A stretch of 32,000 bases of DNA from Candidatus Woesearchaeota archaeon (GTDB lineage: Archaea > Nanobdellota > Nanobdellia > Woesearchaeales > SM23-78). Where the stretch lies: the NCBI GenBank assembly GCA_019322375.1, contig JAHWIP010000076.1, forward strand, positions 1 through 32,000, read 5' to 3'. Positions 2,398 through 32,000 of this stretch are shown piece by piece (within the stretch, counting starts at the first letter, position 1; every line of letters begins with the position of its first letter). The position numbers and the translations under genes were made by a program. The notes beneath the pieces are model-generated. The model saw nothing but the letters and a program-made list of their open reading frames with translations, searched no databases and was not told where the DNA came from.

Positions 2398-2958
2398 ATG
2401 AAAAAATCAATCTTGTTCCTTTTGGCACTGCTCCTGGTGTCTAGTTTCTCCTTCCAATGCTGGGCTGGAACCTTCAAAATAGGGGCATCTGTGAACTACT
2501 ACCTCATCTCAGATCCTATCTTCAAAGAGCTCTACTCAAGCGGGGGCATGATGTTTGGTGGCTTTCTGAGCTTCTCGTATAAAATGTTCGAGCTAAGGAC
2601 TGAGTTCAACACTTTCCAGATGAATGGCAACATGAGCCTGACAGAAGAAGAAATCAAGTTCTCAATGACCCCGATTGTTGTAGGACTCCGGGTTTTTCTG
2701 CCTAACAAAACTGTTTCCCCATACCTGGGAGGTGGTCTTACTTACTGCTCTTACAAGGAGGAGCTTCCAGCACGTTTTGAGCCAGTGTCAGAATCAGTCA
2801 CTGGTTTTCATTTTGAATCTGGCAGTTACTTCATCTTGGCAAAGGGACTTCTCCTGGATCTCAATGTGCGGTATTCGAATTTAAATGCAGAATCCTTTGC
2901 AGATGATGTAAAGATTGGAGGAATCCGGGCAGGCCTTGGGGTTGGGTACAGATTCTGA
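2398..2958 (+). CDS. Small outer-membrane-protein-type beta-barrel protein (OMP_b-brl-like, 8-strand size class)
   Basis: It has a signal peptide (MKKSILFLLALLLVSSFSFQCWA) and alternating amphipathic strands. The C-terminus is GLGVGYRF, with a terminal aromatic Phe like the beta-signal of bacterial OMPs. A strong SD (AAAGGAGG) lies 8 nt upstream of the ATG. Confidence 0.6.
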   Translation: MKKSILFLLALLLVSSFSFQCWAGTFKIGASVNYYLISDPIFKELYSSGGMMFGGFLSFSYKMFELRTEFNTFQMNGNMSLTEEEIKFSMTPIVVGLRVFLPNKTVSPYLGGGLTYCSYKEELPARFEPVSESVTGFHFESGSYFILAKGLLLDLNVRYSNLNAESFADDVKIGGIRAGLGVGYRF

Positions 2959-5236: not shown

Positions 5237-5273
5237 GATAGAAAACAGAATAAGTTATTATATATAAATATTT

Positions 5274-10434: not shown

Positions 10435-10466
10435 ATTTAAATAATCTCCTATAATCCAAAGCACAC

Positions 10467-10979
10467 ATGGCAGATGTACAAATAGGCTTATTTGGCAGCT
10501 CAACAAGCAATGATAAAAAACTCTTTGCTATTGCACAAGAAACAGGCAGACTTATTGCTGAAAAAAAAGCAACTCTTTTCTGTGGTAATGTTCTTGGTGT
10601 TATGAGTGCAGCTCTTAAAGGTGCAAAACAAGGAGGAGGAAGAACAGTTGTTATTGTGCCTTATGAAGAAGCAGGACAAGGAGATTTATCTAATTGCGAT
10701 GTATATATCCCCAGTGCTATGAACTGGTTTTCAAGAGGAGGCTCATTGGTTAATGCTGTTGATGGAATCATCGTGGTGGGTGGGGGTGTTGGCACTATTA
10801 GTGAGCTTACATATGCTTGGTGGAAAGAAATACCTGTTGTAATTATAGAAACAGGTGAGCTAATAGACCAATACATTGGTAAAGGATTTGATAAAAGGAA
10901 AAAACATAAAATACTAGGTGCAAAAACCCCTAAGGAAGCAGTAGAGAAATTATTTGAGCTTATTTCTAAACACTCCTAA
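10467..10979 (+). CDS. LOG / TIGR00725-like Rossmann-fold protein (lysine-decarboxylase-like family)
   Basis: GLFGSS...LFCGNVLGVMSAALKGAKQGGGRTVVIVP and VVGGGVGTISELTYAW match the family pattern GGxxG(V/I)M...G.P and GGxGTxxE. The protein is 170 aa. Confidence 0.55.
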   Translation: MADVQIGLFGSSTSNDKKLFAIAQETGRLIAEKKATLFCGNVLGVMSAALKGAKQGGGRTVVIVPYEEAGQGDLSNCDVYIPSAMNWFSRGGSLVNAVDGIIVVGGGVGTISELTYAWWKEIPVVIIETGELIDQYIGKGFDKRKKHKILGAKTPKEAVEKLFELISKHS

Positions 10980-11967
10980 AGAACACTATCTTCATTAAAA
11001 CAAACAAAAAGTAAAGCCCTATGAGTATAACTCCTTCTTTTTTTTCATGATGGTCAACAGTTATATTCTTCCTCAATAAAAGCATGACCACAAGCACTGT
11101 GAAAGCCCAGAAAGGAAGCTCAAAAAACAACAGGCTTCTATTAAAACTAAGACCGGCAATAGTTGCTCCTAATCCCATGGATAAAAGAGGATTAGTAATG
11201 TTTGAGCCTATCAAGGTTCCTAAAGAGATGCCATGGGCCTTCTTAACAATACCCTTAAGAGCAGTTGAAAGTTCTGGCAAGCAACCCCCAACACCAAGGA
11301 TAATAACACCTAAAAAGGTCTGGGTAAGATTAAAAGCATCAGCTATTCTAAGAGCATTATCAACCACAAACTTACCTCCAAGGATTAATAACCCAACACC
11401 GCCCAGCATTATAAGGCTCACAATAAAAGGATGATGTCTTAATCTTCGGGATTTCAGCTCAATAGCATCAACAGGCTCTGCAAGTAAAGGGCTCTTTCTT
11501 CTATCTCTTCTCTCATCCCTGCTCAAAAACAAGAGATAAACAACATAAGCAAGTATCAAGATGATGCCCATAATCCTAGAGATAAAGCCTGTTAAACCCA
11601 TAAGAAAAACTAATAATATTGATATGAGAATAGCAACTCCATCCCTGCTAAGAGTCTTTTTATCTGCTTTTAAAATGCTTATCAAAGCCACAAGCCCGAC
11701 AACAAGAGTCATCTGGGTGATAGAAGAACCAATATTAACACCAACAGCTATACCACTGGCAGCAACTCCTCTAAGATTAGAAATACCAGCATATACATTA
11801 GTGAATATCTCTGGCAAAGAAGTGCCAATGGAAACAACAGTTAATCCAATAAACACATGGGAAAGCCTGAACCTCTGAGCCAGCTTCTTAGCACTCTCAA
11901 TAATAAAATCAGAGCCAATCCAGAGCAGAACAAGCCCAAGTATTAATAAGAGGATTGGGATTAGCAT
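10966..11967 (-). CDS. CaCA-family Na+(H+)/Ca2+ exchanger (YrbG/NCX_Mj-like)
   Basis: About 10 TM segments in two halves each carry an alpha-repeat signature (GTSLPEIFTN and GGCLPELSTAL), separated by a charged loop (SRDERRDRRKS). The 3' end overlaps the convergent 10467-10979 gene by 14 nt. Confidence 0.8.
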   Translation of the reverse strand: MLIPILLLILGLVLLWIGSDFIIESAKKLAQRFRLSHVFIGLTVVSIGTSLPEIFTNVYAGISNLRGVAASGIAVGVNIGSSITQMTLVVGLVALISILKADKKTLSRDGVAILISILLVFLMGLTGFISRIMGIILILAYVVYLLFLSRDERRDRRKSPLLAEPVDAIELKSRRLRHHPFIVSLIMLGGVGLLILGGKFVVDNALRIADAFNLTQTFLGVIILGVGGCLPELSTALKGIVKKAHGISLGTLIGSNITNPLLSMGLGATIAGLSFNRSLLFFELPFWAFTVLVVMLLLRKNITVDHHEKKEGVILIGLYFLFVLMKIVFFRSV

Positions 11968-12008: not shown

Positions 12009-12707
12009 TCAGCTCCTAACAAGCATTGATTCCAGCTTGTCTTCAATAGCAGGTATATTAAGGTAGCCTTGGTCTTCACACATAACCCTCATTTCCCCAT
12101 ATAATTCATGGAAGGGCTTTTGGAATTTCTGCCAGAACCAGTTGGCTATTGCAAAATTTACATTCTTCTTAGAATTAAACTCATTGTTCTTCATAGAAAC
12201 ATGCCACCTGTCAAACTGGGAAACATATCCCCCTACATCAAACAAGTTAATGTAATAAGTCCAGGACAGGGGTGTGTTAGCATCACCCGGAATAAAATAA
12301 TAGTGCTGGTCAAGGTATTTACTTCTGCTGTCAGCAACACTCACAACATTTCCTATATTGCCATTTCCTAATAGATTATGCAGTCTTTCTTTATCACGCC
12401 CAATAGAGTGCTTGTCTTGAGATGAGAAGAAAATATTAGCAAACATCACTACTCTTGACAAATCAGCGTATACTAAGCCGTGATTAACCCCTCTTTGTAT
12501 AAAAGAATTATTCTTAATCTTTTTTAATTCAAACATAAGATCCCAGATTTCTTTAGAATCTGCATTAAAGACTGATTCAACATAACCCATATCTTGTATG
12601 CCCCTGGCAAAGAATTCATGAATAACATCTTTTTTCCTAACCTCAAACGGATACTTTTCTAATAATAAGTATTCAAAGAGCACAGGAATATCTATTGCAT
12701 CAATCAT
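12009..12707 (-). CDS. Hypothetical protein, no family recognised
   Basis: It is a 232-codon ORF with non-repetitive, ordinary-complexity sequence (…NHGLVYADLSRV…GRDKERLHNLLGNGNIGN…FDRWHVSMKNNEF…). I could not assign any motif. Confidence 0.5.
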   Translation of the reverse strand: MIDAIDIPVLFEYLLLEKYPFEVRKKDVIHEFFARGIQDMGYVESVFNADSKEIWDLMFELKKIKNNSFIQRGVNHGLVYADLSRVVMFANIFFSSQDKHSIGRDKERLHNLLGNGNIGNVVSVADSRSKYLDQHYYFIPGDANTPLSWTYYINLFDVGGYVSQFDRWHVSMKNNEFNSKKNVNFAIANWFWQKFQKPFHELYGEMRVMCEDQGYLNIPAIEDKLESMLVRS

Positions 12708-14534: not shown

Positions 14535-15485
14535 ATGGAAGAAAAGTTTGTTGTAAAAGAAAAATTTGAAAAAAGATACAGAGAATTACTAAGGGATAGA
14601 TATGATGAGTTTATCAATTACTCCAAGAAATACATAAGAAAAAGCATTCGTGTGAACACCTTAAAGATTTCTATTAATGAATTAAAAAAAAGACTGGGAA
14701 AAAACTGGGAGTTAAAACAGGTTCCCTGGTGCAGGCAAGGTTTTTGGATAGAGCATAAAGCAAAGGATGATGAAAAAAGATATGACATAGGTAATGTTTT
14801 AGAGCACCAGCTAGGCTATATATATGTGCAGGAAGCAGCAAGCATGATACCTCCTGTAGTGCTGGAGCCAAGACCAGGGGAAACAGTTCTGGATATGTGC
14901 TCTGCTCCTGGCAGCAAAGCAAGCCAGATAGCAGCCATGATGCAGAACAAAGGCTTATTAATAGCTAATGATGTGCAGACAGGCAGGTTAAAGCCTCTTG
15001 GAATCAACCTTCAAAGAGTAGGGGTGAGCAATGCCTTAATCACACAGATGCCAGGGCATAGATTTAAAAAAACAAGCCTAAGATTTGACAAAGTGCTGGT
15101 GGATGCTCCTTGCACTGGAACAGGAACAATAAGGCGCTCATACAAAACCTTAACCATGTGGAGCCCTAACATGATAAGAAAACTGGCAAGCCAGCAAAAA
15201 CAATTAATAGCCAGTGGATTTGAAGTGCTAAAACCAGAAGGAAGGCTTGTGTACTCAACCTGCACAATGGAGCCAGAAGAGAATGAAGAAGTGGTGAGCT
15301 GGCTGCTAAATAAATATCCTGATGCAAAGATTGAGAAAATAAAGCTAGATATCAACCGCAGTCCTGCAATTGCTGGGTTTGGAAAAGAAAAATACAATTC
15401 CCAAGTCAAAGAATGCCTAAGAATATGGCCCCAGGATAATGATACTGAGGGGTTTTTTGTAGTTAATATAAGAAAAAAAAGTTGA
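14535..15485 (+). CDS. NOL1/NOP2/Sun-family RNA (cytosine-C5)-methyltransferase (archaeal Trm4/NSUN-like)
   Basis: Motifs are VLDMCSAPGSKASQIA (SAM site), VLVDAPCTGTGTIRR (motif IV Cys) and LVYSTCTMEPEENE (motif VI Cys). The gene starts 1 nt after the elp3 stop. Confidence 0.85.
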   Translation: MEEKFVVKEKFEKRYRELLRDRYDEFINYSKKYIRKSIRVNTLKISINELKKRLGKNWELKQVPWCRQGFWIEHKAKDDEKRYDIGNVLEHQLGYIYVQEAASMIPPVVLEPRPGETVLDMCSAPGSKASQIAAMMQNKGLLIANDVQTGRLKPLGINLQRVGVSNALITQMPGHRFKKTSLRFDKVLVDAPCTGTGTIRRSYKTLTMWSPNMIRKLASQQKQLIASGFEVLKPEGRLVYSTCTMEPEENEEVVSWLLNKYPDAKIEKIKLDINRSPAIAGFGKEKYNSQVKECLRIWPQDNDTEGFFVVNIRKKS

Positions 15486-15491
15486 ACAGAA

Positions 15492-15929
15492 TCACTTCCT
15501 TGCCTTCTCCAGCTTTCCGCGTAGCAAAGCATCCAGGCTTTGGTCATTGACTTTTATTACCTGCCATCTTACTCCTGGGATGTCTCCTTTGCTTCTGCCC
15601 ATGGTTCCTCCTATGCACTCAATTATTACTTCGTCATGTTCATCTATTAGCTTGGTTGCTCCGTCTCCTGGGCAAAAAGCAGTCACTTGCTTGCCGTTCT
15701 TTACCAGCTGCACTCTAACGCATTTCCTCATTGCAGAGTTTGGCTGTTTTGCTTCTAACTGGACTTTTTCCAGCACTATGCCTGAGGCCTGGCTTGCCCC
15801 TCCAAGAGGGTCTGACTTTGCTTTCAGCCTTTTGGCTCTTTTAACATACCATTTATCATGCCATCTGCTTTTCTTGCTTCTTTTCTTAAGTTTTTTTGCA
15901 GCGTTCAAGCCTTTGCTTTTCTTTGCCAT
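15492..15929 (-). CDS. rps12: 30S ribosomal protein uS12 (archaeal S12/S23e type)
   Basis: [53 protein letters not shown]....[31 protein letters not shown] is the hallmark uS12 sequence. Confidence 0.95.
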
Positions 15930-15952
15930 TTTTTATCTCTGATTGGCAACAA

Positions 15953-15971
15953 CAAAAATCAAAGATTTTTG
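15953..15971 (-). promoter_or_regulatory. Perfect 8-bp hairpin in the rps12 leader
   Basis: CAAAAATC-AAA-GATTTTTG lies 24-42 nt upstream of the rps12 ATG. It is the same CAAAA..NNN..TTTTG design as the hairpins in the rpoA'/rpoA'' bridge. Confidence 0.3.
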
Positions 15972-16031
15972 AGTTTGCCATTTTACTCGTCCAATGAATG
16001 GTGATGCTTTTTTAAATGTTTTGTAAATAAC

Positions 16032-16769: not shown

Positions 16770-17927
16770 TTATCTCTTCTTCTTTGCTACTTTCTCCTCT
16801 CTTATCTTGGTAATCAAGCCGGGCAGCCCTGTTCCCAGGGGCACTGGCTGGTTAATCATGACATTCTCAATAACAGAGTTAAGGTCGTCTATCTCTCCTA
16901 CCATGCTGGCATTGATTATGTGCCTGATAGGCGTCTCAAACGAGGCTCTTGCCAGCACACTAGGCTTTTCCTTAACAATACCGTATCTGCTCACACCCAG
17001 TACTTTGCCTGACATGGTCATGGCATCTGCTATTAAGAGTATGTGCCTTGTATCAATGTTTATTCCTTGAGCTTTGAGCACTTTGATTATCTCTCTTACA
17101 ACTGCTTCTCTTGCTGCTTCTATGCCCAGGAGTTTCTCAATCTCAGTAATTTTATTGGTGGTTGTCATATAAGGATTAACAAAGTCAAGTTTAAGCACGT
17201 CTTTTAGATTGCTGCCAGCAGTTACTATTATATATTCGTCCTCTCTCTTAACAGGCAGTACTTGGACTATTCCTTTCACACCATTAATGTACACATCTTT
17301 TATTTTTTCTTTTAACCTGTAAATCATGTTTAGGGCTTCGTCTCCTGAAGCCTTTATTCTTATGCTGCTGTCCTTGTCAAGCCTTACATCAAACCCTTTC
17401 AGACCTTTTTTTAGTAGTCTTGCAATCTTTAAGTGCGTAACTCTTCTATCCTTGAGCTTCTTATCATCAAGCTCAATTCTCATCTTGGTCTCAGCAACAT
17501 TAATACTTATCTCCTTAAGATACTCTTTGAATCTGGTTTCTTTCAGTCCTTCAGCTATTAATCTGATATCCTTGCCCTGGGAATAAGGCTTTTTCAAGTA
17601 TATCTCCATCATCTCAGTGCTAATCTCTTTTCTAGCATCAAGAATCTCTATTAATCTTGGCAGGCCTGTAGTAACATTCATTTCAGAAACTCCAGCAAAG
17701 TGAAAGGTGTTTAAAGTCATCTGGGTTCCTGGCTCTCCAATAGATTCAGCAGTAACAAGCCCTACTGATTCTCCTGGTTCTGCTAATGAGCTTCTATACT
17801 CAGAATACACTCTTTCAACTATTTTTTTTATCTTATTACTGCTGGTTTTTTCAGGAAGCTCTTTTTCCAATTCCTCAAGTAGTTTTAATGGAAGCCTGTT
17901 CTTATATTCTAATAATTCCCTTTTCAT
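16770..17927 (-). CDS. rpoA2: DNA-directed RNA polymerase subunit A'' (Rpo1C)
   Basis: AEPGESVGLVTAESIGEPGTQMTLNTFHFAGV (trigger-loop region) and the C-terminal SFETPIRHIINASMVGEIDDLNSVIENVMINQPVPLGTG are present. The protein is 385 aa. Confidence 0.95.
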   Translation of the reverse strand: MKRELLEYKNRLPLKLLEELEKELPEKTSSNKIKKIVERVYSEYRSSLAEPGESVGLVTAESIGEPGTQMTLNTFHFAGVSEMNVTTGLPRLIEILDARKEISTEMMEIYLKKPYSQGKDIRLIAEGLKETRFKEYLKEISINVAETKMRIELDDKKLKDRRVTHLKIARLLKKGLKGFDVRLDKDSSIRIKASGDEALNMIYRLKEKIKDVYINGVKGIVQVLPVKREDEYIIVTAGSNLKDVLKLDFVNPYMTTTNKITEIEKLLGIEAAREAVVREIIKVLKAQGINIDTRHILLIADAMTMSGKVLGVSRYGIVKEKPSVLARASFETPIRHIINASMVGEIDDLNSVIENVMINQPVPLGTGLPGLITKIREEKVAKKKR

Positions 17928-18157
17928 TTTTTACCTCGTAAAATGTTTAAATCTTGTTTTTTATTTAAACCAACAAAATCTTTGATTTTGTGTCCCAAAG
18001 GCTTTGCCTTTGTGAATTCAAAAGAGCAAAGCTCTTTTGTATAATGGCTCAAAAATGGTTTGTTCATTTTTTTAAATGAACATTCAAAAACCCCATGGGT
18101 TTTTGTAATTTTCATTTTTGTTGTCATTTTAACCTTTTCTGCCTGTTTTTGAATCAT
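17924..18157 (-). CDS. 77-codon Lys-rich bridging ORF between rpoA' and rpoA''. Coding status is uncertain (see hairpin array).
   Basis: Its ATG overlaps the rpoA' TGA (ACATGA), and its TGA overlaps the rpoA'' ATG (AAATGA). It stays open in a very AT-rich segment where stops are expected by chance. It is also packed with palindromes, which is atypical of coding sequence. No family was recognised. Confidence 0.35.
   Translation of the reverse strand: MIQKQAEKVKMTTKMKITKTHGVFECSFKKMNKPFLSHYTKELCSFEFTKAKPLGHKIKDFVGLNKKQDLNILRGKK
17945..18105 (-). other. Array of six perfect short hairpins inside the rpoA'/rpoA'' bridge
   Basis: Plus-strand coordinates are as follows. GTTTAAAT-10nt-ATTTAAAC at 17945-17970. 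CAAAATC-TTT-GATTTTG at 17974-17990. CAAAGGC-TTT-GCCTTTG at 17996-18012. CAAAAGAGC-AAA-GCTCTTTTG at 18019-18039. TGTTCATTT-TTTT-AAATGAACA at 18061-18082. CAAAAACCC-CAT-GGGTTTTTG at 18085-18105. Confidence 0.8.
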
Positions 18158-20739
18158 GTAGTCCTTATTATATGCCCAACATTAATCTTGCCGCCCTCGC
18201 TCTTGCTAACATCCACTCCATCCTCCCCATAAGCAAACTGTACAATCTTTTTACCAGCGTCCCGCACAGTAAAGTCATATTCTACTTTGAAATCTTGAAG
18301 AGCATTGGCCAGTCTTCTGTAAAGATAACCTGATTTAGGTGTTCTAAGAGCAGTATCCATTAAGCTATCCCTCCCTGTCATTGCCATGAAAAAGAGTTCA
18401 AAAGGTTCAAGCCCGCTCTTAAAACCATTTCTTATAAAGCCTCTTGCAGATGCTCCTAAGTCTCCTTTTTTAAAGCATGATAAAGTCCTGTCACTGTAAC
18501 CCTTGCTAATCCTCCCCCCTCTCAAAGCCTGCTGTCCTACGCATGCAGACATCTGGGCAAGGTTAAGCAGATTACCCTGGGCTCCTGACTGTATCATCAT
18601 AAGGGTGTGAGAATCTTTTTTAGCATTCTTAGCAACTATTTCTCCTGTCTCATTCCTTGCTTTGTTAAGCCTTTCCAATATTCTGAGTTCAAGAGTCTCT
18701 CTAATATCTCTTCCTGGCAAGAGCTCAAGGGTTCTGTCATGATATTCTTGTATCATCTTCTTAACATCAGTATCTGCTTCTTCAAGAAGCCTAATAACCT
18801 CTTCCTGCACTTCTGGTTTTAAATCAATATCTGAAAGAGTGATTGTTAAGCCATACCTAAGCAACACTTCTATTCCTAACCTATATATTTTCCCAAGCAT
18901 ATCAACCATCTGAGCAGCTCCGTATTGTTTATGCAGGTTTCTCAGAAGCAGGCCTGAACCTTCTCCCAGGTTGTTCTTATCAAGTATTCCTGTAACCAGT
19001 TTTCCATTTTTTATCTCAACAATAGCATCAGGGTCTTTTACACCTTCCTTGTAATGCCTTGCAAAACCTCTGAAATTAAAATCATCAGGTAAGAGCACAG
19101 AAAAGATTTCTTTGCCATTAACCATGTTCTTGCTGGATAGTTTTGTAAAGTTATCAACCCCGACTGCAACAAGCAAGTCAACTGCTTCTTCTCTTGGAAG
19201 GCTTAAGTACTTGGTTAAAATATAATTGCCAGTAATAGCATCCTGGTTACACCCAATAATGCTCAAACCATACCTTGGGCTTATTAACTGAGTCTGAACC
19301 TCCATTAGTATCTCTGCCTCGCTTCTGGCTTCCTCTGTCTGAGGGATATGTAAATTCATTTCATCACCATCAAAGTCAGCATTATAAGGAGCACACACAG
19401 CAGGGTTAAGCCTAAGAGTAAGACCTGGCAGCACCTTCACACGATGGCACATCATGCTCATCCTGTGCAGGCTTGGCTGCCTGTTAAACGTGCTTATATC
19501 ACCATCCATTAAGTGCCTCTCAATAATAAAGCCTGGCTGAAGCTCTTCAAGCAGCTGTTCTTTTGTCTCATCAGTGATTTTTTTCCTTCTTCCATCAGGC
19601 CTGATAATATAATTAGCACCAGGATACTTCTTAGGACCTCTCTTAACAAAGTCTTTAAGAAACTCAAGGTTCCACTCTGTTATTCTCTCAGGCACTGTGA
19701 GCTTCATAGCCATCACCATTGGCACACCAACCTCATTTATATTAAGCATGGGATCAGGGCTAATCACAGTTCTTGCTGAAAAATTAGTTCTTTTACCAGC
19801 AAGGTTATGACGAATTCTTCCCTCCTTGCTCTTAATACGCGCAGTAAGAGTTTTTAATGGCTGCCCGCTCCTATGCCTTGCAGGCGGTAGCTGGGCAACA
19901 GCATTATCAAAGAAAGTAGTGATATGATACTGCAATAAATCCCATAAATCCTCAATAATAATTTCCGGAGCTCCTGCATTGATGTTCTCAAATAATCTCT
20001 GGTTAATCCTGACAATGTCCCCTAGTTTATGAGTAAGGTCATCCTCGCTTCTCTCGCCTGTTTCAAGAGTAATGCTTGGCCTCATAGTAACCGGAGGTAT
20101 TGGCAGGACTGTTAACACCATCCACTCTGGCTGAGCACTGCCAGGGTTAATACCAAAAAAAGGCAGGTGCTCTCTTTTTATTCTCTCAAGTCTGCTCCTA
20201 ACCTCTATTGGGCTGAGCCTTTTATCATCCTCTAAGAAAGTGGTTGGCTTCTCAATTCTTATCTTGAATTGTTTCTCCTTGCAATGAGGGCACTTAGTAA
20301 TAGTCTTAAGAGCAGCAATGATTTCTTTTATCTTTTTTCTCTGCTCATCAACCCCAAACTCTTTGCCAATGTTTTCAAGCTCATGCCTGAACCTGTTAAT
20401 CTTATCACTAGGAATCAATATGTTGCCGCAGCTCCTGCAAGAACATCTCAGCAAGTCAAGAATAACATTAACAAATTTGATATGAATAACAGGCCTTGCA
20501 AGCTCTATGAATCCAAAATGCCCAGGGCACTCTTTTAACTTGCACCCGCAAGTCTTGCACTTAAGCCCAGGGTCAATCACTCCTAAGCGAACATCCATTA
20601 AGCCGCCATCAACAGGATAGCCCTCTTTATCATAAAGCTCAGGAGTAACAATCTTGGCAGAAGCCATTTCCTTGATAAACTTAGGACTCATCACCCCAAA
20701 TTCAATCTGGTCAACTTTTTTTGATACTGGTGGTTCCAT
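18154..20739 (-). CDS. rpoA1: DNA-directed RNA polymerase subunit A' (Rpo1N)
   Basis: Zn-binding motifs are CKTCGCKLKECPGHFG and CSCRSCG. The catalytic motif is YNADFDGDEMNLHIPQ. The protein is 861 aa. Confidence 0.97.
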   Translation of the reverse strand: MEPPVSKKVDQIEFGVMSPKFIKEMASAKIVTPELYDKEGYPVDGGLMDVRLGVIDPGLKCKTCGCKLKECPGHFGFIELARPVIHIKFVNVILDLLRCSCRSCGNILIPSDKINRFRHELENIGKEFGVDEQRKKIKEIIAALKTITKCPHCKEKQFKIRIEKPTTFLEDDKRLSPIEVRSRLERIKREHLPFFGINPGSAQPEWMVLTVLPIPPVTMRPSITLETGERSEDDLTHKLGDIVRINQRLFENINAGAPEIIIEDLWDLLQYHITTFFDNAVAQLPPARHRSGQPLKTLTARIKSKEGRIRHNLAGKRTNFSARTVISPDPMLNINEVGVPMVMAMKLTVPERITEWNLEFLKDFVKRGPKKYPGANYIIRPDGRRKKITDETKEQLLEELQPGFIIERHLMDGDISTFNRQPSLHRMSMMCHRVKVLPGLTLRLNPAVCAPYNADFDGDEMNLHIPQTEEARSEAEILMEVQTQLISPRYGLSIIGCNQDAITGNYILTKYLSLPREEAVDLLVAVGVDNFTKLSSKNMVNGKEIFSVLLPDDFNFRGFARHYKEGVKDPDAIVEIKNGKLVTGILDKNNLGEGSGLLLRNLHKQYGAAQMVDMLGKIYRLGIEVLLRYGLTITLSDIDLKPEVQEEVIRLLEEADTDVKKMIQEYHDRTLELLPGRDIRETLELRILERLNKARNETGEIVAKNAKKDSHTLMMIQSGAQGNLLNLAQMSACVGQQALRGGRISKGYSDRTLSCFKKGDLGASARGFIRNGFKSGLEPFELFFMAMTGRDSLMDTALRTPKSGYLYRRLANALQDFKVEYDFTVRDAGKKIVQFAYGEDGVDVSKSEGGKINVGHIIRTT

Positions 20740-20754
20740 TTAACCTTTTCCGCT

Positions 20755-20820
20755 CCGCGCAAAACGTTAACGAAAAGTAAGCGACTCCTAGTGCTGCGCA
20801 CCGGAGTCCCTTCAACGCGG
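20755..20820 (-). other. GC-rich structured spacer between rpoB' and rpoA' (candidate RNA element)
   Basis: The 94-nt spacer is visibly more GC-rich than its surroundings. It has nested complementarity: CCGCG (20755-59)/CGCGG (20816-20), GACTCC (20783-88)/GGAGTC (20803-08), and GTGC (20791-94)/GCAC (20798-801). Confidence 0.25.
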
Positions 20821-20833
20821 GCAATTTTTTTGC

Positions 20834-24168: not shown

Positions 24169-24408
24169 CTAATCCTTAACAACCCCCCGATAATATATTA
24201 TCTCGCCAGCAGTCCTGCTCTTACGCTTAATCATAACAATATCCCCTTCCTTAACACTGAGATGAGCTATTGCTGGATCAGAAACATTAATTTTAGGAAT
24301 CTCCCTGATAGAGACCTTATAATCTTTTAGCAAAGCCTTTGCTTCTTTATCAGAGAGCTTGATATGCTCAGGAATAAGGTCGTGTTTGAGTTGAGATTTT
24401 CGTGTCAT
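24169..24408 (-). CDS. rpoH: DNA-directed RNA polymerase subunit H (Rpo5)
   Basis: HDLIPEHIKLSDKEAKALLKDYKVSIREIPKINVSDPAIAHLSVKEGDIVMIKRKSRTAGEIIYYRGVV is the classic RpoH sequence. I set the start at the internal ATG (MTRKS) because the ORF-track extension to 24459 runs into the tRNA-Lys gene. Confidence 0.9.
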   Translation of the reverse strand: MTRKSQLKHDLIPEHIKLSDKEAKALLKDYKVSIREIPKINVSDPAIAHLSVKEGDIVMIKRKSRTAGEIIYYRGVVKD

Positions 24409-24428
24409 TTTAATCTGAAATGTATACA

Positions 24429-24583: not shown

Positions 24584-24586
24584 ATA

Positions 24587-24735
24587 CGCCCTGGCCGGGA
24601 TTCGAACCCGGGTCGAAGCCTATCCACGACTTTAATCATTGATTGTGAATGATTATTAGTTCTCGACAGGGCTTCATGATAGTTACTGCAACAAAACAAG
24701 GTTTGTTTTGCTGAACCAGGCTACACTACCAGGGC
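24587..24735 (-). tRNA. tRNA-Asp(GUC) with two introns (D-loop ~33 nt, anticodon 37/38 ~42 nt), 149 nt
   Basis: The minus strand reads GCCCTGG-TA-GTGT-[43 nt D region containing hairpin CAAAACAA-ACC-TTGTTTTG]-TCAT-G-AAGCC-CTGTCG[42 nt containing AATCATT-CACAATC-AATGATT]A-GGCTT-CGAC-CCGGG-TTCGAAT-CCCGG-CCAGGGC-G. Only 3 nt separate it from tRNA-Lys. Confidence 0.8.
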
Positions 24736-24933
24736 ATCGCATACTTAATCATGAAGCAAATTGAAGTGAATAAAAGAGCAGTGGCTCGTAAATGCGTTTG
24801 TATTACCTTTCTAGAACCCTCCTGCCCTTAAAAACATTTTATTCCAGCTCATATTTCCCTGCTAATAATGATATGAGTATAGCTAACAATATATTATTAA
24901 TACTGAATACAAGCAAAGAAGGTGGATAACCAT

Positions 24934-29439: not shown

Positions 29440-30684
29440 TTATTTTTTCTTTTTCTTAGGTTTCTTCTTTTTTGCTTTCTTTTTCTTCTTCTTTGTTATC
29501 TTTTTCTTTTTCTTAGGTTTCTTCTTTGTTATTTTCTTTACTTTCTTTTTCTTTGCTGCTTTCTTCTTTGCCTTTCTCTTGAGCTTCTTTTTTAATTTTT
29601 TCTTTGCAGCTTTTTTCTTAGCTGTTTTTTTCTTTGCAGTCTTTTTCTTAGTCTTTTTTACTTTTTTCTTTACCTTGGTCATGGCAGCCTTCTTAAGCTT
29701 GGTTATGTATTCTTTTTCTTCTTCTTTTCTGCTCTTGACTTTTATGATTATGGCAATTATCAGTATAACTATCAATGCTATTAGCAGGAATTGTACAATG
29801 ATTGCTGCCCTGCTTTTTTCAAGTTGAGAAGCAGGTTGCTGCTGCTCTGGCTCAGCCTCTTCTGGCTCTTCTAGAACAGGGGTTATAACCACATTTACCT
29901 TCCTAATAACAGGCGCTCTTGCTGCTTCTCCTAATAAATTGCTTTCCTGCTTGGTGCTCACTGTGAAGTATGCTTTTTTGTAAGAAATATAGTTAAGGGT
30001 TAACTCAATATCTTCCTGCCCGTCATTGTTAAAATCAAGGTTAATTGAGGCTTTCTCATGCAGGTTCATTCTCTTGTCACCAGGGGTTATCATCAATCCC
30101 ACCATGCCTATTCCTTTGCTATAATCCTGTATAATCCTCATAATATTAATCTCATAGGTGTTCTCTCCTTTTCTTGCTCTGATAACATCATTTGGCATCA
30201 CTTTGTCTATGTCTAGTTCAAGGTCATCTTTGATTTCAAATTCATAGATATAGCCTGCTCTGTTTGGGAACTTGGTTATTGTCAGCTCTGATTCCTCTTC
30301 CTCCCCTATTATTAGGCGTCTGGTTGGAGAAGTAATCTTTATATTATCTGTGTCTATGCATTCTATGCTCCAGATATAGGTGCCTGGCACCAGGTCTGTT
30401 CTTATCCTTGTATCATACGGCGATAGTAATCCAGTAGCAGTCTTTGCTATCTGGTCATTCAGGATTAACGAGCACTCTTTCATATCAAGCTCAGAAGGAT
30501 ACTTGAACATGAAATATATGCTTGTTGCTTTTGTCTGGGTGTCATGCGTTGGGGCTACAAGGGTTATGCTGGCAGCAGGGCTGATAACAAAGCCTGTGAT
30601 TGAAGCATTGTTAGCAATAACTAGGTATATTAAGGCAAGGGCAAACAATCCAAAGACTATTTCTAGTTTTGTAACCCGCTTCAT
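29440..30684 (-). CDS. Type-I membrane protein: two Ig-like ectodomains, an acidic linker, one TM helix, and a 100-aa polylysine cytoplasmic tail
   Basis: The signal/anchor is LEIVFGLFALALIYLVIA. The ectodomain is paralogous to the upstream gene. The acidic linker is EEPEEAEPEQQQ and the TM helix is AAIIVQFLLIALIVILIIAIII. In the last 85 residues, 57 are Lys (KKTAKKKTAKKKAAKKKLKKK...KKKKPKKKKK). The start overlaps the upstream gene's stop by 4 nt. Confidence 0.8.
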   Translation of the reverse strand: MKRVTKLEIVFGLFALALIYLVIANNASITGFVISPAASITLVAPTHDTQTKATSIYFMFKYPSELDMKECSLILNDQIAKTATGLLSPYDTRIRTDLVPGTYIWSIECIDTDNIKITSPTRRLIIGEEEESELTITKFPNRAGYIYEFEIKDDLELDIDKVMPNDVIRARKGENTYEINIMRIIQDYSKGIGMVGLMITPGDKRMNLHEKASINLDFNNDGQEDIELTLNYISYKKAYFTVSTKQESNLLGEAARAPVIRKVNVVITPVLEEPEEAEPEQQQPASQLEKSRAAIIVQFLLIALIVILIIAIIIKVKSRKEEEKEYITKLKKAAMTKVKKKVKKTKKKTAKKKTAKKKAAKKKLKKKLKRKAKKKAAKKKKVKKITKKKPKKKKKITKKKKKKAKKKKPKKKKK

Positions 30685-32000
30685 TTTTTCATCTTCCTCC
30701 CTGTGCTCTTAATAATATCAAAGCTCTCATCAAAAACAGGCTGGGCTTCTTCAGGCTCAGGACTTTCTTCTGGCTTAACCATTTTTGGTTTAAGCTCCTT
30801 TTTTTTAACCTTTGGTTCTCTGGCTTTTTTCTCTTTGGTCTTTTTTTGTTTAACCGGTTGTTTAACCACTTTTTTCTCTGGTTTTCTCCTAGAGGGAGAC
30901 TCAAAAATCTCTGATTTTTGTTTTCTCCCAGAAGGAGACTCAAAAATCTCTGATTTTTGTTTTCTCCCAGAAGGAGACTCAAAAATCTCTGATTTTTGTT
31001 TTCTCCCAGAAGGAGACTCAAAAATCTCTGATTTTTGTTGTTTCTCTTCTTTGGTAATTTGTAATTCAGTAACTTTTTTCTTTTTTCTTTTTGCAACCAA
31101 CAGGATAATCACAAGAATTATGATTAATATAATTGCTATTATGAGTATTATTAACCAGGTTTTGCTCTTTTTTTCTGGCTTTGGAGAGGGTGTTACGACT
31201 GTTTCTTCTTCTACCTCAGGCTCTTCTACTTCTTCTTCAGGCTCTTGCTCTGCGAGCAAGTCCTCTCCCTCTTCAACTTCCTCTATAACTTCTGGTTCTT
31301 CTTCTGTTTCCGGCTCTTCTTCAGGCACTGGTTCTGCTTCTTCTTCCTCTTCTTCTATTGCTTCTTCAACAACTGTATCTGGATAAGGAGTCACAACAAA
31401 GTAAGCATCAACACTTCTGTCAACCTCTGTAAGAGAGAGCTCAACATCCACGGTCTCATCATCATCAAAGTCAAAGCTGAGGGTGCCTGGTACCAGCATC
31501 CTGTGCTTAACACCTGTACTTCTGTCCCTTACCTCTACAAAGCTGGTGTTAATAGCAACCCCCATCTTTATAATATCAAGGTAATAAGTTTTGCCGGAAA
31601 GTTTTATCTGGATATCCTCCCCTCCTTTAAGTGCAGGAAGCTCTACAGGGCTCTGACCAGGCTCTATTGTGAACACATAACCTCTTAAACCAGAGGAATA
31701 ATAAAATGTTTCATAGCTTTCTTTTATTTCTTCACCAGTATTAACACTAAGGGTTCTTGTCTCAGATAGTATCTCATTAAAATCTATGTCATAGCACTTC
31801 ATAAACCAGTCGTGCTTACCTGCTTCTAGCTCCACTGTTATTTTATTATCATTTATGCGGAAAAGCGTGTTCCTGACTTTTTTTACCTCATCATCTACTA
31901 TTAATGAGCAGTTAAGAATGTCCACGTACTGGTCAAAGCTGTAGATAAAGTCCTGGGTATAAGTTATGATTACAGAGCCGTCAGCAGGCAATTTAAGTTC
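30681..32000 (-). CDS. Paralogous type-I membrane protein (5' end outside the window): Ig-like ectodomains, a long polyacidic stalk, a TM helix, and a basic tail with a 13-aa x4 tandem repeat
   Basis: The frame is open to the window end. The domains align by eye with the 29440-30684 protein (C.L..D......L..G...W...C.D; ...F.F.DD...D.EL.L.......AYF.V). The acidic stalk EEAIEEEEEEAEPVPEEEPETEEEPEVIEEVEEGEDLLAEQEPEEEVEEPEVEEE is at ~31203-31370. The TM helix is TWLIILIIAIILIIILVIILLVA. The basic tail is KRKKKK...(KSEIFESPSGRKQ)x4...KKTKEKKAREPKVKKKELKPK. Confidence 0.8.
   Translation of the reverse strand, partial: ELKLPADGSVIITYTQDFIYSFDQYVDILNCSLIVDDEVKKVRNTLFRINDNKITVELEAGKHDWFMKCYDIDFNEILSETRTLSVNTGEEIKESYETFYYSSGLRGYVFTIEPGQSPVELPALKGGEDIQIKLSGKTYYLDIIKMGVAINTSFVEVRDRSTGVKHRMLVPGTLSFDFDDDETVDVELSLTEVDRSVDAYFVVTPYPDTVVEEAIEEEEEEAEPVPEEEPETEEEPEVIEEVEEGEDLLAEQEPEEEVEEPEVEEETVVTPSPKPEKKSKTWLIILIIAIILIIILVIILLVAKRKKKKVTELQITKEEKQQKSEIFESPSGRKQKSEIFESPSGRKQKSEIFESPSGRKQKSEIFESPSRRKPEKKVVKQPVKQKKTKEKKAREPKVKKKELKPKMVKPEESPEPEEAQPVFDESFDIIKSTGRKMKK
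30881..31042 (-). repeat. Perfect 39-nt in-frame tandem repeat (about 3.8 copies plus a degenerate flank)
   Basis: The plus-strand unit is GGAGACTCAAAAATCTCTGATTTTTGTTTTCTCCCAGAA. Identical copies sit at 30895-30933, 30934-30972 and 30973-31011. A fourth copy starts at 31012 and diverges after ~29 nt. A partial diverged copy lies at 30881-30894. The unit encodes KSEIFESPSGRKQ. Confidence 0.95.

What the first reader, a model, noticed from the sequence alone, without database searches (positions are those of the whole stretch)
17924..18157. A 231-nt insert between rpoA' and rpoA'' is both a perfectly bridging ORF and an array of six perfect hairpins
A' and A'' genes normally abut. Here a very AT-rich segment separates them. 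It reads as a 77-codon Lys-rich ORF whose start and stop each overlap the neighbours in ATGA arrangements, the geometry of translational coupling. An open frame of that length is unexpected by chance in AT-rich DNA. The same segment carries six perfect inverted repeats with 7-9-bp stems. Five have 3-4-nt loops and one has a 10-nt loop. Four have the form CAAA(A)..NNN..(T)TTTG. That is far more palindromic than normal coding sequence. It could be a novel small RNAP-associated protein, an RNA processing/attenuation/stoichiometry-control element between the two halves of the largest subunit, or a domesticated MITE-like insertion.
Basis: seen in the sequence. Interest (0 to 1): 0.7.

Follow-up and report, generated by a model that had tools for sequence, protein, structure and literature searches.

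The report
Palindrome pile-up between RNA-polymerase genes
The 226 bases between the two halves of this archaeon's largest RNA polymerase gene are a lineage-specific pile-up of tiny perfect DNA palindromes of a kind found in non-coding DNA of a few related Woesearchaeota, and the 77-codon reading frame across it is most likely a by-product, not a new polymerase protein.

Summary
ORF 17924..18157(-) has 77 codons with ATGA overlaps at both ends. It carries six perfect hairpins plus a seventh 6-bp one (RNA fold z = -5.7). The interpretation mostly fails.

- **No gene conservation.** The ORF matches only its own database entry in 5.8 billion and 1.84 billion protein searches. The nearest relatives have a 5-nt spacer. 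Other expanded spacers in the clade (130-338 nt) have no bridging ORF.
- **Both ATGA overlaps pre-exist** in relatives that lack the insert.
- **The hairpins belong to a family.** Perfect CAAAA..loop..TTTTG palindromes are confined to one Woesearchaeota subclade (1.77 versus 0.14 per 10 kb) and enriched in non-coding DNA (30 of 41, p = 7e-20).
- **They behave as DNA-level palindromes.** Nearly all are fully Watson-Crick (38 perfect, 7 with one defect). They are gained, lost and loop-flipped between 99%-identical strains. They are flanked by direct repeats of variable length (p = 7e-8).
- **The insert carries relic copies of the rpoA'' start** (AAATGA four times, p = 0.0008) and of the rpoA' ribosome-binding site. 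These supply Met11, Met15 and Met31 of the ORF.

Best reading: serial fold-back or insertion duplications at the rpoA'' start. Translation of the ORF is plausible but probably incidental.

The parts
17928..18153 (-). 226-nt spacer (insert) between the rpoA' stop and the rpoA'' start; GC 0.28
   Evidence: The sister genomes L002/L082 and L001/L081 have TTAAA (5 nt) here.
17924..18157 (-). 77-codon orphan ORF (annotated in NCBI from Met11 as the 67-aa hypothetical protein KY348_06390)
   Evidence: No family hit. Frame-open chance 0.0009-0.014. Codon score is at the 22nd percentile of real gene windows, and 4.5% of dinucleotide shuffles reach it.
18128..18142 (-). Relic ribosome-binding leader GCAGAAAAGGTTAAA in front of Met11 (ATG 18125-18127). 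It is a near copy of the rpoA' leader GCGGAAAAGGTTAA at 20740-20753.
   Evidence: The same leader drives rpoA'' directly in L007.
18109..18119 (-). Upstream copy of the direct repeat AAAAATGAAAA (contains Met15, ATG 18113-18115). This is a relic rpoA'' start.
   Evidence: AAATGA occurs four times in the region (expected 0.5, p = 0.0008).
17921..17931 (-). Downstream copy of the direct repeat AAAAATGAAAA, containing the functional rpoA'' ATG (17925-17927)
18085..18105 (-). Hairpin 1, CAAAAACCC-ATG-GGGTTTTTG. It is the perfect core of an imperfect palindrome with 22-nt arms (18074-18117), and both arms carry the AAATGAA start motif.
   Evidence: (I1, 82% complementary)
18061..18082 (-). Hairpin 2, TGTTCATTT-AAAA-AAATGAACA. 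It is an inverted plus a direct copy of the start motif (contains Met31, ATG 18065-18067).
   Evidence: (I6)
18019..18039 (-). Hairpin 3, CAAAAGAGC-TTT-GCTCTTTTG
   Evidence: Its 3' half mirrors hairpin 4 around GAATTC (I2).
17996..18012 (-). Hairpin 4, CAAAGGC-AAA-GCCTTTG
   Evidence: It is a direct-repeat partner of hairpin 5 (D1, 79% identity).
17973..17991 (-). Hairpin 5, ACAAAATC-AAA-GATTTTGT. L007 has the same stem and flanks but with loop TTT.
17945..17970 (-). Hairpin 6, GTTTAAAT-(10 nt)-ATTTAAAC. It contains a TATA-box consensus TTTAAATA (17962-17969) ending 34 nt before the rpoA'' ATG.
   Evidence: Promoter function is inferred only.
17925..17943 (-). Hairpin 7 (TTTTAC-GAG-GTAAAA, 17929-17943) together with the Shine-Dalgarno sequence and start of rpoA'' (GAGGTAAAAAATG, 17925-17937). 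The SD and spacer are the same as for gene 2398..2958.
18154..20739 (-). rpoA' (861 aa)
16770..17927 (-). rpoA'' (385 aa)
15944..15984 (-). Second instance in the same operon (nusA-rps12 spacer). A relic start AAAATGGCAAA (15974-15984) is followed by hairpin CAAAAATC-TTT-GATTTTTG (15953-15971) and an inverted copy of the start (..TTGTTGCCA). The real rps12 start AAAATGGCAAA is at 15922-15932.
24692..24710 (-). Family member CAAAACAA-ACC-TTGTTTTG inside a tRNA-like gene upstream of rpoH
30902..31037 (-). Four tandem 39-nt units, each containing CAAAAATC-AGA-GATTTTTG, lying inside a coding ORF and translated as KQKSEIFESPSGR four times

Best explanation
**What it is (high confidence).** The spacer is a lineage-specific, non-conserved insertion. 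It is built from short perfect DNA palindromes of a family with the form C-A(3-5)-variable core-3/4-nt loop-complement-T(3-5)-G. This family populates non-coding DNA in one subclade of Woesearchaeota: intercistronic spacers, 5' leaders, spaces between convergent genes, and tRNA-gene regions.

**How it arose (inferred).** There were repeated events at the rpoA'' start. Each event added palindromic DNA and re-copied the target. This left a relic ribosome-binding leader, three relic direct copies and one inverted copy of the AAATGAA start motif, and an 11-nt direct repeat that brackets most of the array.

The forward-reverse-forward arrangement, the all-Watson-Crick stems, the loop flips between near-identical strains and the variable length of the flanking repeats point to fold-back template switching during DNA synthesis. 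They point away from a cut-and-paste transposase.

**Consequences (inferred).**
- The 77-codon ORF exists because the relic starts (Met11, Met15, Met31) happen to share one frame. That frame has no stop before the pre-existing ATGA at the rpoA'' start.
- The ORF may well be translated from the relic leader. It is not a conserved gene.
- rpoA'' is now served by its own strong SD (GAGGTAAAAAATG), which came with the insert, and possibly by a TATA-like box.
- The hairpins are transcribed within the operon mRNA. At most they modulate its stability or the coupling between cistrons.
For: **Absent from the nearest relatives and patchy across the clade**
- Sister pairs differ: 24 vs 161 nt at 92% nucleotide identity, 50 vs 163 nt, and 1 vs 72 nt.

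**No protein homolog**
-.
- No bridging ORF in any other long A'-A'' spacer.

**The hairpins form a family**
- CAAA is the commonest outer tetranucleotide of perfect hairpins: 42 of 521.
- Density is 1.77 per 10 kb in the clade and 0.14 in 133 more distant loci. 30 of 41 lie in the 11.6% of sequence that is non-coding, p = 7e-20.
- They occur in the rpoB'-A', A'-A'', nusA-rps12 and post-rps12 spacers and next to unrelated genes (UPP synthase/AMMECR1, RsmB/TPR).

**DNA-level signature**
- 38 members are perfect, 7 have one non-Watson-Crick pair, and only one of those is G-U.
- Loops are purine-only or pyrimidine-only in both orientations.
- One hairpin has loop AA in L083 and TTT in L084, which are 99.2% identical. 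A hairpin block is present in one and absent in the other.
- WIN and L007 share a stem and its flanks but have complementary loops.

**Flanking direct repeats**
- Repeats of 9 nt or more flank 9 of 24 clusters against a 3.5% null (p = 7e-8). Their lengths run from 9 to 31 nt.

**Forward-reverse-forward copies of the target**
- In the WIN A'-A'' spacer (I1).
- In the WIN nusA-rps12 spacer.
- Independently in L102/L106/L110, compared with relatives that have the plain site.

**Relic leader**
- The leader before Met11 is nearly identical to the rpoA' leader.

**Literature**
- Template switching creates and perfects hairpin stems and inverts their loops (PMC8794818; PMC8604942).
Against: - No whole genome of the clade could be scanned. 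Copy number and genome-wide spread rest on about 230 kb centred on the RNAP operon.
- A shared about 30-nt hairpin-plus-linker segment in WIN and L007, and recurrent hairpin doublets with GTGC-like linkers, look more like copying of a pre-existing element than de novo fold-back. A transposase-mobilised or otherwise copy-pasted element therefore remains possible.
- A simple 7-9-mer self-similarity count inside the insert is not above dinucleotide shuffles. Only the AAATGA motif, the hairpins and the 11-nt repeat are individually significant.
- The open frame (p about 0.001-0.014), the mildly gene-like codon score (p about 0.045) and a good relic RBS leave room for selection on translation.
- Within the window, the hairpins cluster in the RNAP/rps12/tRNA region and are absent from about 3.3 kb of other non-coding DNA. 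This could hint at a function tied to highly expressed operons.
Confidence: 0.62

Rival explanations
1. Translated spacer. The product does not matter, but the act of translating the ORF does. Ribosomes start at the ATG that overlaps the rpoA' stop, or at the relic RBS before Met11. They melt the hairpin array and terminate on the ATGA at the rpoA'' start. This preserves translational coupling of A' and A'' across the insertion. Selection therefore keeps the frame open.
For: - Chance of this frame being open is 0.0009-0.014.
- The three relic ATGs are all in frame.
- The relic RBS is nearly identical to that of rpoA'.
- A parallel case exists in the L004 nusA-rps12 spacer. A relic ATG opens a 19-codon ORF across two hairpins that ends in TGATG on the rps12 start.
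- The codon score of the frame is within the range of real genes.
Against: - Seven other long A'-A'' spacers (130-338 nt) have no bridging ORF, so coupling is dispensable in the clade.
- The relic ATG in the WIN nusA-rps12 spacer has no stop within a few bases of the real rps12 start, so it gives no such coupling geometry.
- rpoA'' has its own strong SD.
- Both ATGA overlaps pre-date the insert.
- If the insert is recent, the open frame needs no selection.
Confidence: 0.15
2. Classical mobile element. The hairpins are REP-like or mini-MITE units, single or in doublets. They are mobilised in trans by a transposase encoded elsewhere in the genome (for example an HUH/RAYT-type or IS enzyme). The A'-A'' spacer is simply one tolerated landing site.
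For: - Patchy distribution: WIN has them, while its sisters L001, L002 and L006 show none in 6-21 kb each.
- Recurrent doublets with similar linkers occur in different spacers and genomes.
- WIN and L007 share a segment of about 30 nt.
- Flanking direct repeats are present.
- Every unit ends in the inverted termini CAAAA/TTTTG.
- A survey reports a Woesearchaea genome among the archaea with the highest MITE density (PMC11602168).
Against: - Flanking repeats vary from 9 to 31 nt instead of having a fixed length.
- Units are 17-25 nt, far below MITE size.
- The stems differ between copies, whereas copies of one master element would share them.
- Inverted copies of the local target sit next to the hairpins.
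- No transposase is present in the window.
- The conserved 5' GTAG of REPs is absent.
Confidence: 0.2
3. Selected cis-acting RNA or transcription element for the RNAP operon. The hairpins with T-runs attenuate or terminate transcription after rpoA', or protect mRNA ends. The TATA-like box in hairpin 6 then restarts transcription of rpoA''. This uncouples the expression of the two halves.
For: - The fold is very stable.
- Hairpin 1 scores as terminator-like on both strands.
- There are two T5 and three T4 runs on the sense strand.
- TTTAAATA lies 34 nt before the ATG. This leaves a leader of about 10-12 nt containing the SD. The same consensus sits at promoter distance before several leaderless genes of the window.
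- One family member lies between convergent genes in L084, a typical terminator position.
Against: - The insert is absent from the sister genomes, and the other long spacers have different content.
- T5 runs are not avoided inside coding sequences: 55 observed against 62 expected.
- TTTAWATA matches number 11 against 6.7 expected by chance.
- Hairpin orientation is mixed and G-U pairs are essentially absent, which is not what RNA-level selection gives.
- Rfam gives no match.
- A 1:1 subunit pair has no obvious need for attenuation.
Confidence: 0.12
4. Genuine small protein gene. It would be a new basic, Lys-rich RNAP-associated or linker subunit, translationally coupled to A' and A''.
For: - Open 77-codon frame.
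- Gene-like codon score.
- Plausible RBS.
- It is called as a gene in the NCBI record.
Against: - Only a self-hit among 5.8 billion clusters and 1.84 billion representatives. The three weak extra hits are long repetitive proteins.
- Pfam, NCBIfam and PDB give none.
- It is absent from genomes whose RpoA'' is 83-86% identical.
- The sequence is dictated by palindromes.
- pLDDT is 45.6 with no secondary structure.
Confidence: 0.05
5. Assembly or amplification artefact, such as chimeric inverted duplications.
For: Forward-reverse-forward structures resemble polymerase template-switch chimeras made in vitro (own knowledge).
Against: - The same family, and even orthologous hairpins, recur in independent assemblies from different studies and samples. 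Examples are L083/L084/L085, L005/L087 and L007/L090.
- The flanking genes are intact.
Confidence: 0.03

Closest known systems
REP / BIME / REPIN elements of Gammaproteobacteria (own knowledge)
   Same: - Short palindromic units of 20-40 nt.
- Confined to extragenic DNA, including intercistronic spacers of operons.
- Occur singly, as doublets and as clusters in both orientations.
- Transcribed into stable mRNA hairpins.
- Patchy between lineages.
   Different: - REPs are imperfect palindromes with a conserved 5' GTAG/GTGG. They share one consensus per genome and are tied to a RAYT transposase.
- Here the stems are perfect and differ from copy to copy.
- The only constant part is C-A(n)/T(n)-G.
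- Flanking direct repeats of variable length are common.
- No RAYT was seen, though this could not be tested genome-wide.
MITEs, e.g. Neisseria Correia elements; conserved MITEs reported at high density in a Woesearchaea genome (PMC11602168)
   Same: - Non-autonomous, intergenic and inverted-repeat-bounded.
- Flanked by direct repeats.
- Presence/absence polymorphism between strains.
- Can be co-transcribed and alter expression of the neighbouring gene.
   Different: - MITEs are about 50-800 bp with a target duplication of fixed length.
- These units are 17-25 nt, with 9-31-nt repeats and inverted copies of the local target.
Template-switch (fold-back) mutations that create and maintain perfect hairpins (PMC8794818; PMC8604942)
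   Same: - Perfect Watson-Crick arms.
- Loop inversion between close relatives.
- Multi-base 'compensatory' differences between sister hairpins.
- Reverse-complement copies of neighbouring sequence.
   Different: - Those were described mainly for rRNA or miRNA stems and for yeast coding inverted repeats.
- They have not been described as a proliferating family with a common CAAAA/TTTTG frame.
- They have not been described piling up as arrays at gene starts in archaeal operons.
Rickettsia palindromic elements and mitochondrial double-hairpin / GC-cluster elements (own knowledge)
   Same: - Small palindromic repeats in streamlined, AT-rich genomes.
- They insert in spacers, introns and even in frame into coding sequence. 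Compare the 13-aa repeat at 30902-31037 and the 77-codon ORF.
   Different: - Different sequences, sizes (RPEs are about 100-150 bp) and hosts.
- No homology.
Intra-operon attenuator upstream of rpoB in the E. coli rplKAJL-rpoBC operon (own knowledge)
   Same: Hairpin-containing spacer inside an RNA polymerase operon.
   Different: - That element is conserved and sets a defined ribosomal-protein : RNAP ratio.
- This insert is absent from sister genomes and separates two halves of one subunit that are needed 1:1.

Membership tests
Conserved protein-coding gene (small RNAP subunit) | Homologs in related genomes | tested here: not met
   Only the self-hit P0001. The weak extra hits are long repetitive proteins.
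Conserved protein-coding gene (small RNAP subunit) | Present at the same locus in sister lineages | tested here: not met
   L002/L082 and L001/L081 have a 5-nt spacer. No bridging ORF in other long spacers.
Conserved protein-coding gene (small RNAP subunit) | Coding statistics or a foldable product | tested here: inconclusive
   Codon score is within the gene range, but 4.5% of shuffles reach it. pLDDT is 45.6 from a single sequence.
REP/BIME (RAYT-associated) | Imperfect palindrome with conserved 5' GTAG/GTGG and one consensus per genome | tested here: not met
   Stems are perfect, vary between copies, and start with CAAA.
REP/BIME (RAYT-associated) | Extragenic, multi-copy, single/doublet/cluster organisation | tested here: met
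   30 of 41 in non-coding DNA, p = 7e-20. Doublets and arrays are present.
REP/BIME (RAYT-associated) | Cognate RAYT (Y1 HUH) gene in the genome | not testable with these tools
   Only 32 kb of the source genome was available. There is no transposase in it.
MITE | Terminal inverted repeats | tested here: met
   Trivially met. Every unit or array begins with CAAAA and ends with TTTTG.
MITE | Target-site duplication of fixed length | tested here: not met
   Flanking repeats are 9, 9, 10, 11, 11, 11, 11, 17 and 31 nt. Fifteen of 24 clusters have none above background.
MITE | Size about 50-800 bp and a related autonomous IS | tested here: not met
   Units are 17-25 nt and doublets 40-51 nt. Whether a related IS exists could not be tested.
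Template-switch (fold-back) generated palindromes | Perfect Watson-Crick arms without G-U | tested here: met
   38 are perfect, 7 have one defect, and one of those is G-U.
Template-switch (fold-back) generated palindromes | Loop inversion between close relatives | tested here: met
   L083 has loop AA and L084 has TTT at 99.2% identity. WIN has AAA and L007 has TTT.
Template-switch (fold-back) generated palindromes | The new arm is a reverse-complement copy of adjacent sequence, followed by a return to the template that duplicates the target (forward-reverse-forward) | tested here: met
   WIN A'-A'' (I1; 18 of 21 matches by my count). WIN nusA-rps12. L102/L106/L110 against relatives with the plain site.
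Template-switch (fold-back) generated palindromes | Each event reconstructable from an ancestral empty site as a single mutation | tested here: inconclusive
   Clear for the L102-type spacer. The WIN array needs several events, and parts of it (hairpins 3-5) have no identifiable local source.
Intrinsic terminator / attenuator | Stable hairpin followed by a T-run, at the end of a transcription unit | tested here: inconclusive
   Hairpin 1 matches the scan. T5 runs are not counter-selected in coding sequence. The location is inside an operon.
Any curated RNA family (Rfam 15) | Covariance-model match | tested here: not met
   No match near a gathering score. The best is 23 bits against a threshold of 80.

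The most novel reading that the evidence does not exclude
The CAAAA..TTTTG hairpins are a previously undescribed class of self-amplifying mini-palindromes in DPANN archaea. They spread by fold-back template switching at A-rich gene starts. Because each event re-copies the ribosome-binding site and start codon, they generate translated proto-genes. On this reading the 77-codon ORF between rpoA' and rpoA'' is a newborn translated reading frame. Its translation now bridges the two halves of the largest RNAP subunit. The hairpin-encoded 13-aa repeat in ORF 30681..31991 would be a second case of such exaptation.
Probability: 0.2. Interest if true: 0.65.

Novelty: new variant of a known kind. Interest (0 to 1): 0.4.

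Why it matters
- **The split site tolerates insertions.** The near-universal abutment of the archaeal rpoA'/rpoA'' genes has a median spacer of 5 nt. One Woesearchaeota clade tolerates insertions of 50-338 nt here. Tight translational coupling of the two halves therefore looks dispensable, provided the downstream gene keeps or regains its own ribosome-binding site.
- **A repeat family that seems unreported.** It documents a family of tiny perfect palindromes with strain-level turnover in very small, gene-dense genomes. Their signatures fit replication template switching. This offers a natural system for studying how hairpins, upstream ORFs and possibly new ORFs are born. My two searches of the paper library for such repeats in Woesearchaeota or DPANN found no description of it.
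- **A caution for annotation.** The 'hypothetical protein' called here is most likely not a gene in the usual sense.

Tried and rejected
- **Protein route.** Pfam, NCBIfam, PDB, the word-indexed search and the exhaustive HMMER search gave only the self-hit. The single-sequence AlphaFold2 model was unstructured, so no fold search was run.
- **Rfam.** Nothing at gathering or E-value thresholds for the insert.
- **Covariation or RNAz-type analysis of orthologs.** Not possible, because no relative carries an orthologous insert.
- **A covariance model of the hairpin doublets.** The MAFFT alignment of nine doublets was good for hairpin A but unreliable for hairpin B, so no model was built.
- **k-mer self-similarity of the insert.** Not above dinucleotide shuffles, so I do not claim a general excess of local repeats.
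- **T-run avoidance as a test for oligo-T termination.** No avoidance was found.
- **ORF-based coding mask at 70 aa.** It wrongly counted the 77-aa ORF and spurious ORFs as coding. I replaced it with a 100-aa mask.
- **The look-up of encoding contigs for P0001.** Nothing on record.
- **Manual reconstruction of the multi-intron tRNAs at 24400-24760.** Abandoned.
- **A'-ORF-A'' fusion by two -1 frameshifts.** Considered and rejected as unsupported, although there is an A6 run at the 3' overlap.
- **Paper searches.** Searches for Woesearchaeota or DPANN palindromic repeats found no description of this family, and a search on the rpoA1/rpoA2 intergenic region found nothing relevant.


Full report

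Yes. On the minus strand, rpoA' (18154..20739, Rpb1 domains 1-5) and rpoA'' (16770..17927, Rpb1 domain 5) are separated by 226 nt. The surrounding operon is rpoH, rpoB'', rpoB', rpoA', rpoA'', L30e, nusA, rps12.

A 77-codon ORF (17924..18157) starts at the ATG of ACATGA, which overlaps the rpoA' stop. It ends at the TGA of ATGAAA, which overlaps the rpoA'' start. The other two frames carry 6-7 stops each.

The chance that this frame is open is 0.00085 with mononucleotide shuffles and 0.014 with dinucleotide shuffles. For any frame it is 0.002 and 0.05.

Six perfect hairpins lie at the stated places. Four have the form CAAA(A)..(T)TTTG. A seventh 6-bp hairpin sits on the rpoA'' Shine-Dalgarno sequence. 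As RNA the segment folds at -60 kcal/mol, z = -5.68, and 0 of 200 shuffles fold as well. Seven hairpin centres are reached by 1% of dinucleotide shuffles.

**2. Is the ORF a gene?**

The evidence says it is not a conserved one.
- The word-indexed search of 5.8 billion clusters returned only the ORF's own entry. That entry is a 67-aa 'hypothetical protein KY348_06390' of a Candidatus Woesearchaeota MAG, starting at Met11.
- An exhaustive HMMER scan of 1.84 billion representatives added only three weak hits to long repetitive proteins.
- Pfam, NCBIfam and PDB gave nothing.
- A single-sequence AlphaFold2 model is unstructured, with pLDDT 45.6.
- The codon score of the frame is inside the range of real genes (22nd percentile), but 4.5% of dinucleotide shuffles reach it.

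**3. What do relatives have at the junction?**

I fetched 160 loci encoding RpoA'' relatives. In 129 with both genes the median spacer is 5 nt, and 92 have 20 nt or less. So 'normally abut' is right in general.

The RpoA' C-terminus (..GHIIRTT*) and the RpoA'' N-terminus (MKRELLE..) are the same with or without a spacer. The ACATGA and ATGA(A/G)A sequences that give the two 'coupling' overlaps already exist in genomes without the insert.

In a neighbour-joining tree the window is sister to L002/L082 and then L001/L081. All four have the 5-nt spacer TTAAA. The insert is therefore specific to this lineage.

Within the wider clade (RpoA'' at least about 72% identical) spacer length is patchy even between sisters:
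- 24 vs 161 nt at 92% nucleotide identity (L089/L060)
- 50 vs 163 nt (L008/L093)
- 1 vs 72 nt (L003 vs L083/84)
- 19 vs 172 nt (L085/L004)

None of the other long spacers (130-338 nt) has a bridging ORF. Their content differs, but it is assembled from modules shared between different spacers and genomes.

**4. The hairpins belong to a family.**

Among 521 perfect hairpins (stem of 7 or more, loop 3-5) in 1.33 Mb, CAAA is the commonest outer tetranucleotide at 42. GAAA has 8 and TAAA has 6.

The family is concentrated in the close clade: 41 in 232 kb, or 1.77 per 10 kb. In 133 more distant Woesearchaeota/DPANN loci the density is 0.14 per 10 kb. Thirty of the 41 lie in the 11.6% of sequence outside ORFs of 100 aa or more, p = 7e-20.

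They occur in several kinds of place:
- the rpoB'-rpoA' spacer (L003)
- the rpoA'-rpoA'' spacer (window, L005, L007, L087)
- the nusA-rps12 spacer (window 15953-15971, L004, L005)
- after rps12 (L003, L060)
- tRNA-gene regions upstream of rpoH
- between ordinary genes, such as UPP synthase/AMMECR1 and RsmB/TPR in L084

The window's own nearest relatives show none in 6-21 kb each. The element is therefore neither specific to the A'/A'' junction nor vertically stable.

**5. Is the signature at the DNA level or the RNA level?**

It looks like DNA.
- Of units framed by CAAA..TTTG, 38 are perfectly Watson-Crick. Only 7 have one defect, and just one of those is G-U. This is the opposite of the decay series expected for chance matches, and unlike RNA stems that tolerate G-U.
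- By my count from the listing, loops are purine-only (AAA, AGA, GAA..; 16) or pyrimidine-only (TTT, TCT..; 10) on the sense strand. Orientation is therefore mixed.
- L083 and L084 are 99.2% identical. At one hairpin with identical flanks, L083 has loop AA and L084 has TTT. A hairpin with its flanking duplication is present in one and absent in the other. A block of about 215 nt made of partial tRNA-5' copies plus a hairpin doublet is also present in only one of them.
- The window and L007 share ..TTTGG(G/C)ACACAAAATC-loop-GATTTTGTTG with complementary loops.
- Hairpin clusters are flanked by direct repeats of 9 nt or more in 9 of 24 cases, against a 3.5% null (p = 7e-8). The lengths run from 9 to 31 nt, so there is no fixed target-site duplication.

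**6. Anatomy of this insert.**

Reading 5' to 3' on the minus strand:
- After the rpoA' stop comes GCAGAAAAGGTTAAA-ATG (18128-18142, then Met11). This is a near copy of the rpoA' leader GCGGAAAAGGTTAA-ATG at 20740-20753, and of the leader that directly precedes rpoA'' in L007.
- The motif AAATGA, which is the rpoA'' start, occurs four times (expected 0.5, p = 0.0008) and once inverted. The three upstream copies are Met11, Met15 and Met31 of the ORF, all in one frame.
- An 11-nt direct repeat AAAAATGAAAA (18109-18119 and 17921-17931) brackets most of the array.
- Hairpin 1 is the perfect core of a palindrome with 22-nt arms, and both arms include AAATGAA (I1).
- Hairpin 2 is an inverted plus a direct copy of the same motif.
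- Hairpins 3 and 4 mirror each other around GAATTC. Hairpins 4 and 5 are direct copies that differ at two stem positions on both arms (I2, D1).
- The 3' end supplies a new strong SD, GAGGTAAAAAATG. The same SD and spacer serve gene 2398..2958.

The nusA-rps12 spacer of the same window repeats the pattern. It reads: relic AAAATGGCAAA, hairpin, inverted copy TTGTTGCCA, new spacer, then the real AAAATGGCAAA.

A more distant clade shows the cleanest single event. Relatives have ..AAAGGTGTAAAAA-ATG. L102/L106/L110 have AAAGGTGTGAAAAT-AAAA-ATTTTCAAACCAC-GGGTGCAAAAAA-ATG. That is a forward-reverse-forward copy of the SD region.

**7. Mechanism I commit to.**

*Shown:*
- The insertion is lineage-specific.
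- It is made of members of a clade-specific palindrome family.
- It contains relic copies of the target start and of a leader.
- The ORF is an orphan.

*Inferred:*
- The array grew by repeated fold-back (template-switch) events during DNA synthesis at the A-rich rpoA'' start.
- In such an event the nascent strand copies itself backwards, which makes a perfect arm. It then returns upstream on the template, which makes a direct repeat of variable length.
- The same process later homogenises arms and flips loops.
- Published work describes exactly these outcomes for hairpins elsewhere (PMC8794818; PMC8604942).
- Insertions survive only where a complete start region is regenerated downstream. That is why they pile up at gene starts and in spacers of these dense genomes.
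- The ORF is open because palindromic A/T-run units are stop-poor and the relic starts happen to be in frame.
- Because Met11 has an rpoA'-like RBS, some translation is likely. It would end on the rpoA'' start.

I put the 'what it is' part at about 0.8 and the template-switch origin at about 0.5, for 0.62 overall.

**8. Rivals.**
- **Translation of the ORF is selected to keep A'-A'' coupling (0.15).** L004 has a parallel 19-codon relic ORF ending in TGATG on rps12. However, seven long spacers lack any bridge, and rpoA'' has its own SD.
- **A transposase-mobilised REP or mini-MITE (0.2).** Patchiness, doublets with GTGC-like linkers and the segment shared by the window and L007 fit this. Variable repeat length, tiny size, copy-specific stems and inverted target copies do not.
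- **A selected attenuator with an internal promoter (0.12).** Hairpin 1 is terminator-like, and TTTAAATA lies 34 nt before the ATG. Against this, T5 runs are not avoided in coding sequence, TATA matches are near chance, and the element is not conserved.
- **A true small protein (0.05).**
- **An artefact (0.03).** This is countered by recurrence in independent assemblies.

**9. Comparison with known systems, and novelty.**

It works like REP/BIME or MITE-type intergenic palindromes, and like template-switch hairpins. It fails the defining tests of REPs (GTAG, an imperfect shared consensus) and of MITEs (fixed target-site duplication, size). It meets those of template-switch products, apart from a full event-by-event reconstruction.

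My two searches of the paper library for such repeats in Woesearchaeota or DPANN found no description of this family. One survey notes a Woesearchaea genome among the archaea with the highest MITE density (PMC11602168).

I rate it a new variant of a known kind. Interest is moderate (0.4). The striking 'bridging ORF plus hairpins' is explained as a by-product. The palindrome family, its turnover and its tendency to create relic-start ORFs inside a core operon are worth a follow-up.

Noticed in passing
window 24400-24760 (-): Two tRNA-like genes lie upstream of rpoH, with clear acceptor and T-arm ends. ARAGORN and Rfam at gathering score miss them, presumably because of multiple or non-canonical introns. 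A CAAAA-type hairpin (24692-24710) sits in the D-arm region of the first. A third tRNA, with an intron, is found at 29282-29400(-).
   Followed up: partly
window 30902-31037 (-), inside ORF 30681..31991: Four tandem 39-nt units each hold CAAAAATC-AGA-GATTTTTG plus a second small hairpin (TCTCC..GGAGA). They are translated as KQKSEIFESPSGR four times, in a predicted membrane protein. This is a CAAAA hairpin embedded in coding sequence.
   Followed up: partly
L002 4159-4263; L060 116-241 and 2840-3000; L005 2667-3000; L087 9663-10000; L086: A conserved hairpin follows stop codons: AAGYCC.GYCCGGYG.TTGAGG.C, then AAATTAAGTTTAAGTT. It recurs in different spacers of the RNAP operon in several genomes and may be a terminator-plus-promoter cassette. 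It is not present in the window.
   Followed up: partly
L003 270-320; L060 2930-2975; L097 9838-9880: Shared leader hairpin TTCGGAGGAT..ATATCCTCCTTAA, in which an SD-like GGAGGA is paired with an anti-SD-like TCCTCC. It is followed by GCTTTTCGCAAAAGGTTA just before rpoA' or rpoA''. The window's rpoB'-rpoA' spacer (20740-20833) and L007's A'-A'' spacer share a variant, GGGACTCCGG..CTAGGAGTC plus TTTTGCGCGRAGCGGAAAAGGTTAA.
   Followed up: partly
L097 9834-10000: The A'-A'' spacer contains a second copy of the last about 30 nt of rpoA' (GTCAGCCACATAATAAGGACGACAAATTAA). The insertion therefore went into the 3' end of rpoA' and duplicated the gene end.
   Followed up: no
L084 2921-3115 versus L083 about 1540-1560: At 99.2% overall identity, L084 carries an extra block of about 215 nt upstream of a tRNA gene. 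The block consists of repeated partial tRNA-5' fragments plus a CAAAA hairpin doublet.
   Followed up: partly
window 5261-5268(-), 10436-10443(+), and upstream of genes 10966..11967(-) and 12009..12707(-): Several first or monocistronic genes have a TATA consensus ending 22-25 nt before the ATG and no SD, so their transcripts look leaderless. Genes internal to operons carry GGAGG/GAGGT SDs.
   Followed up: partly
window 15011..15547 (-) versus 15492..15929 (-): The longest rps7 ORF overlaps the end of rps12 by 56 nt. The real rps7 start is probably further downstream.
   Followed up: no
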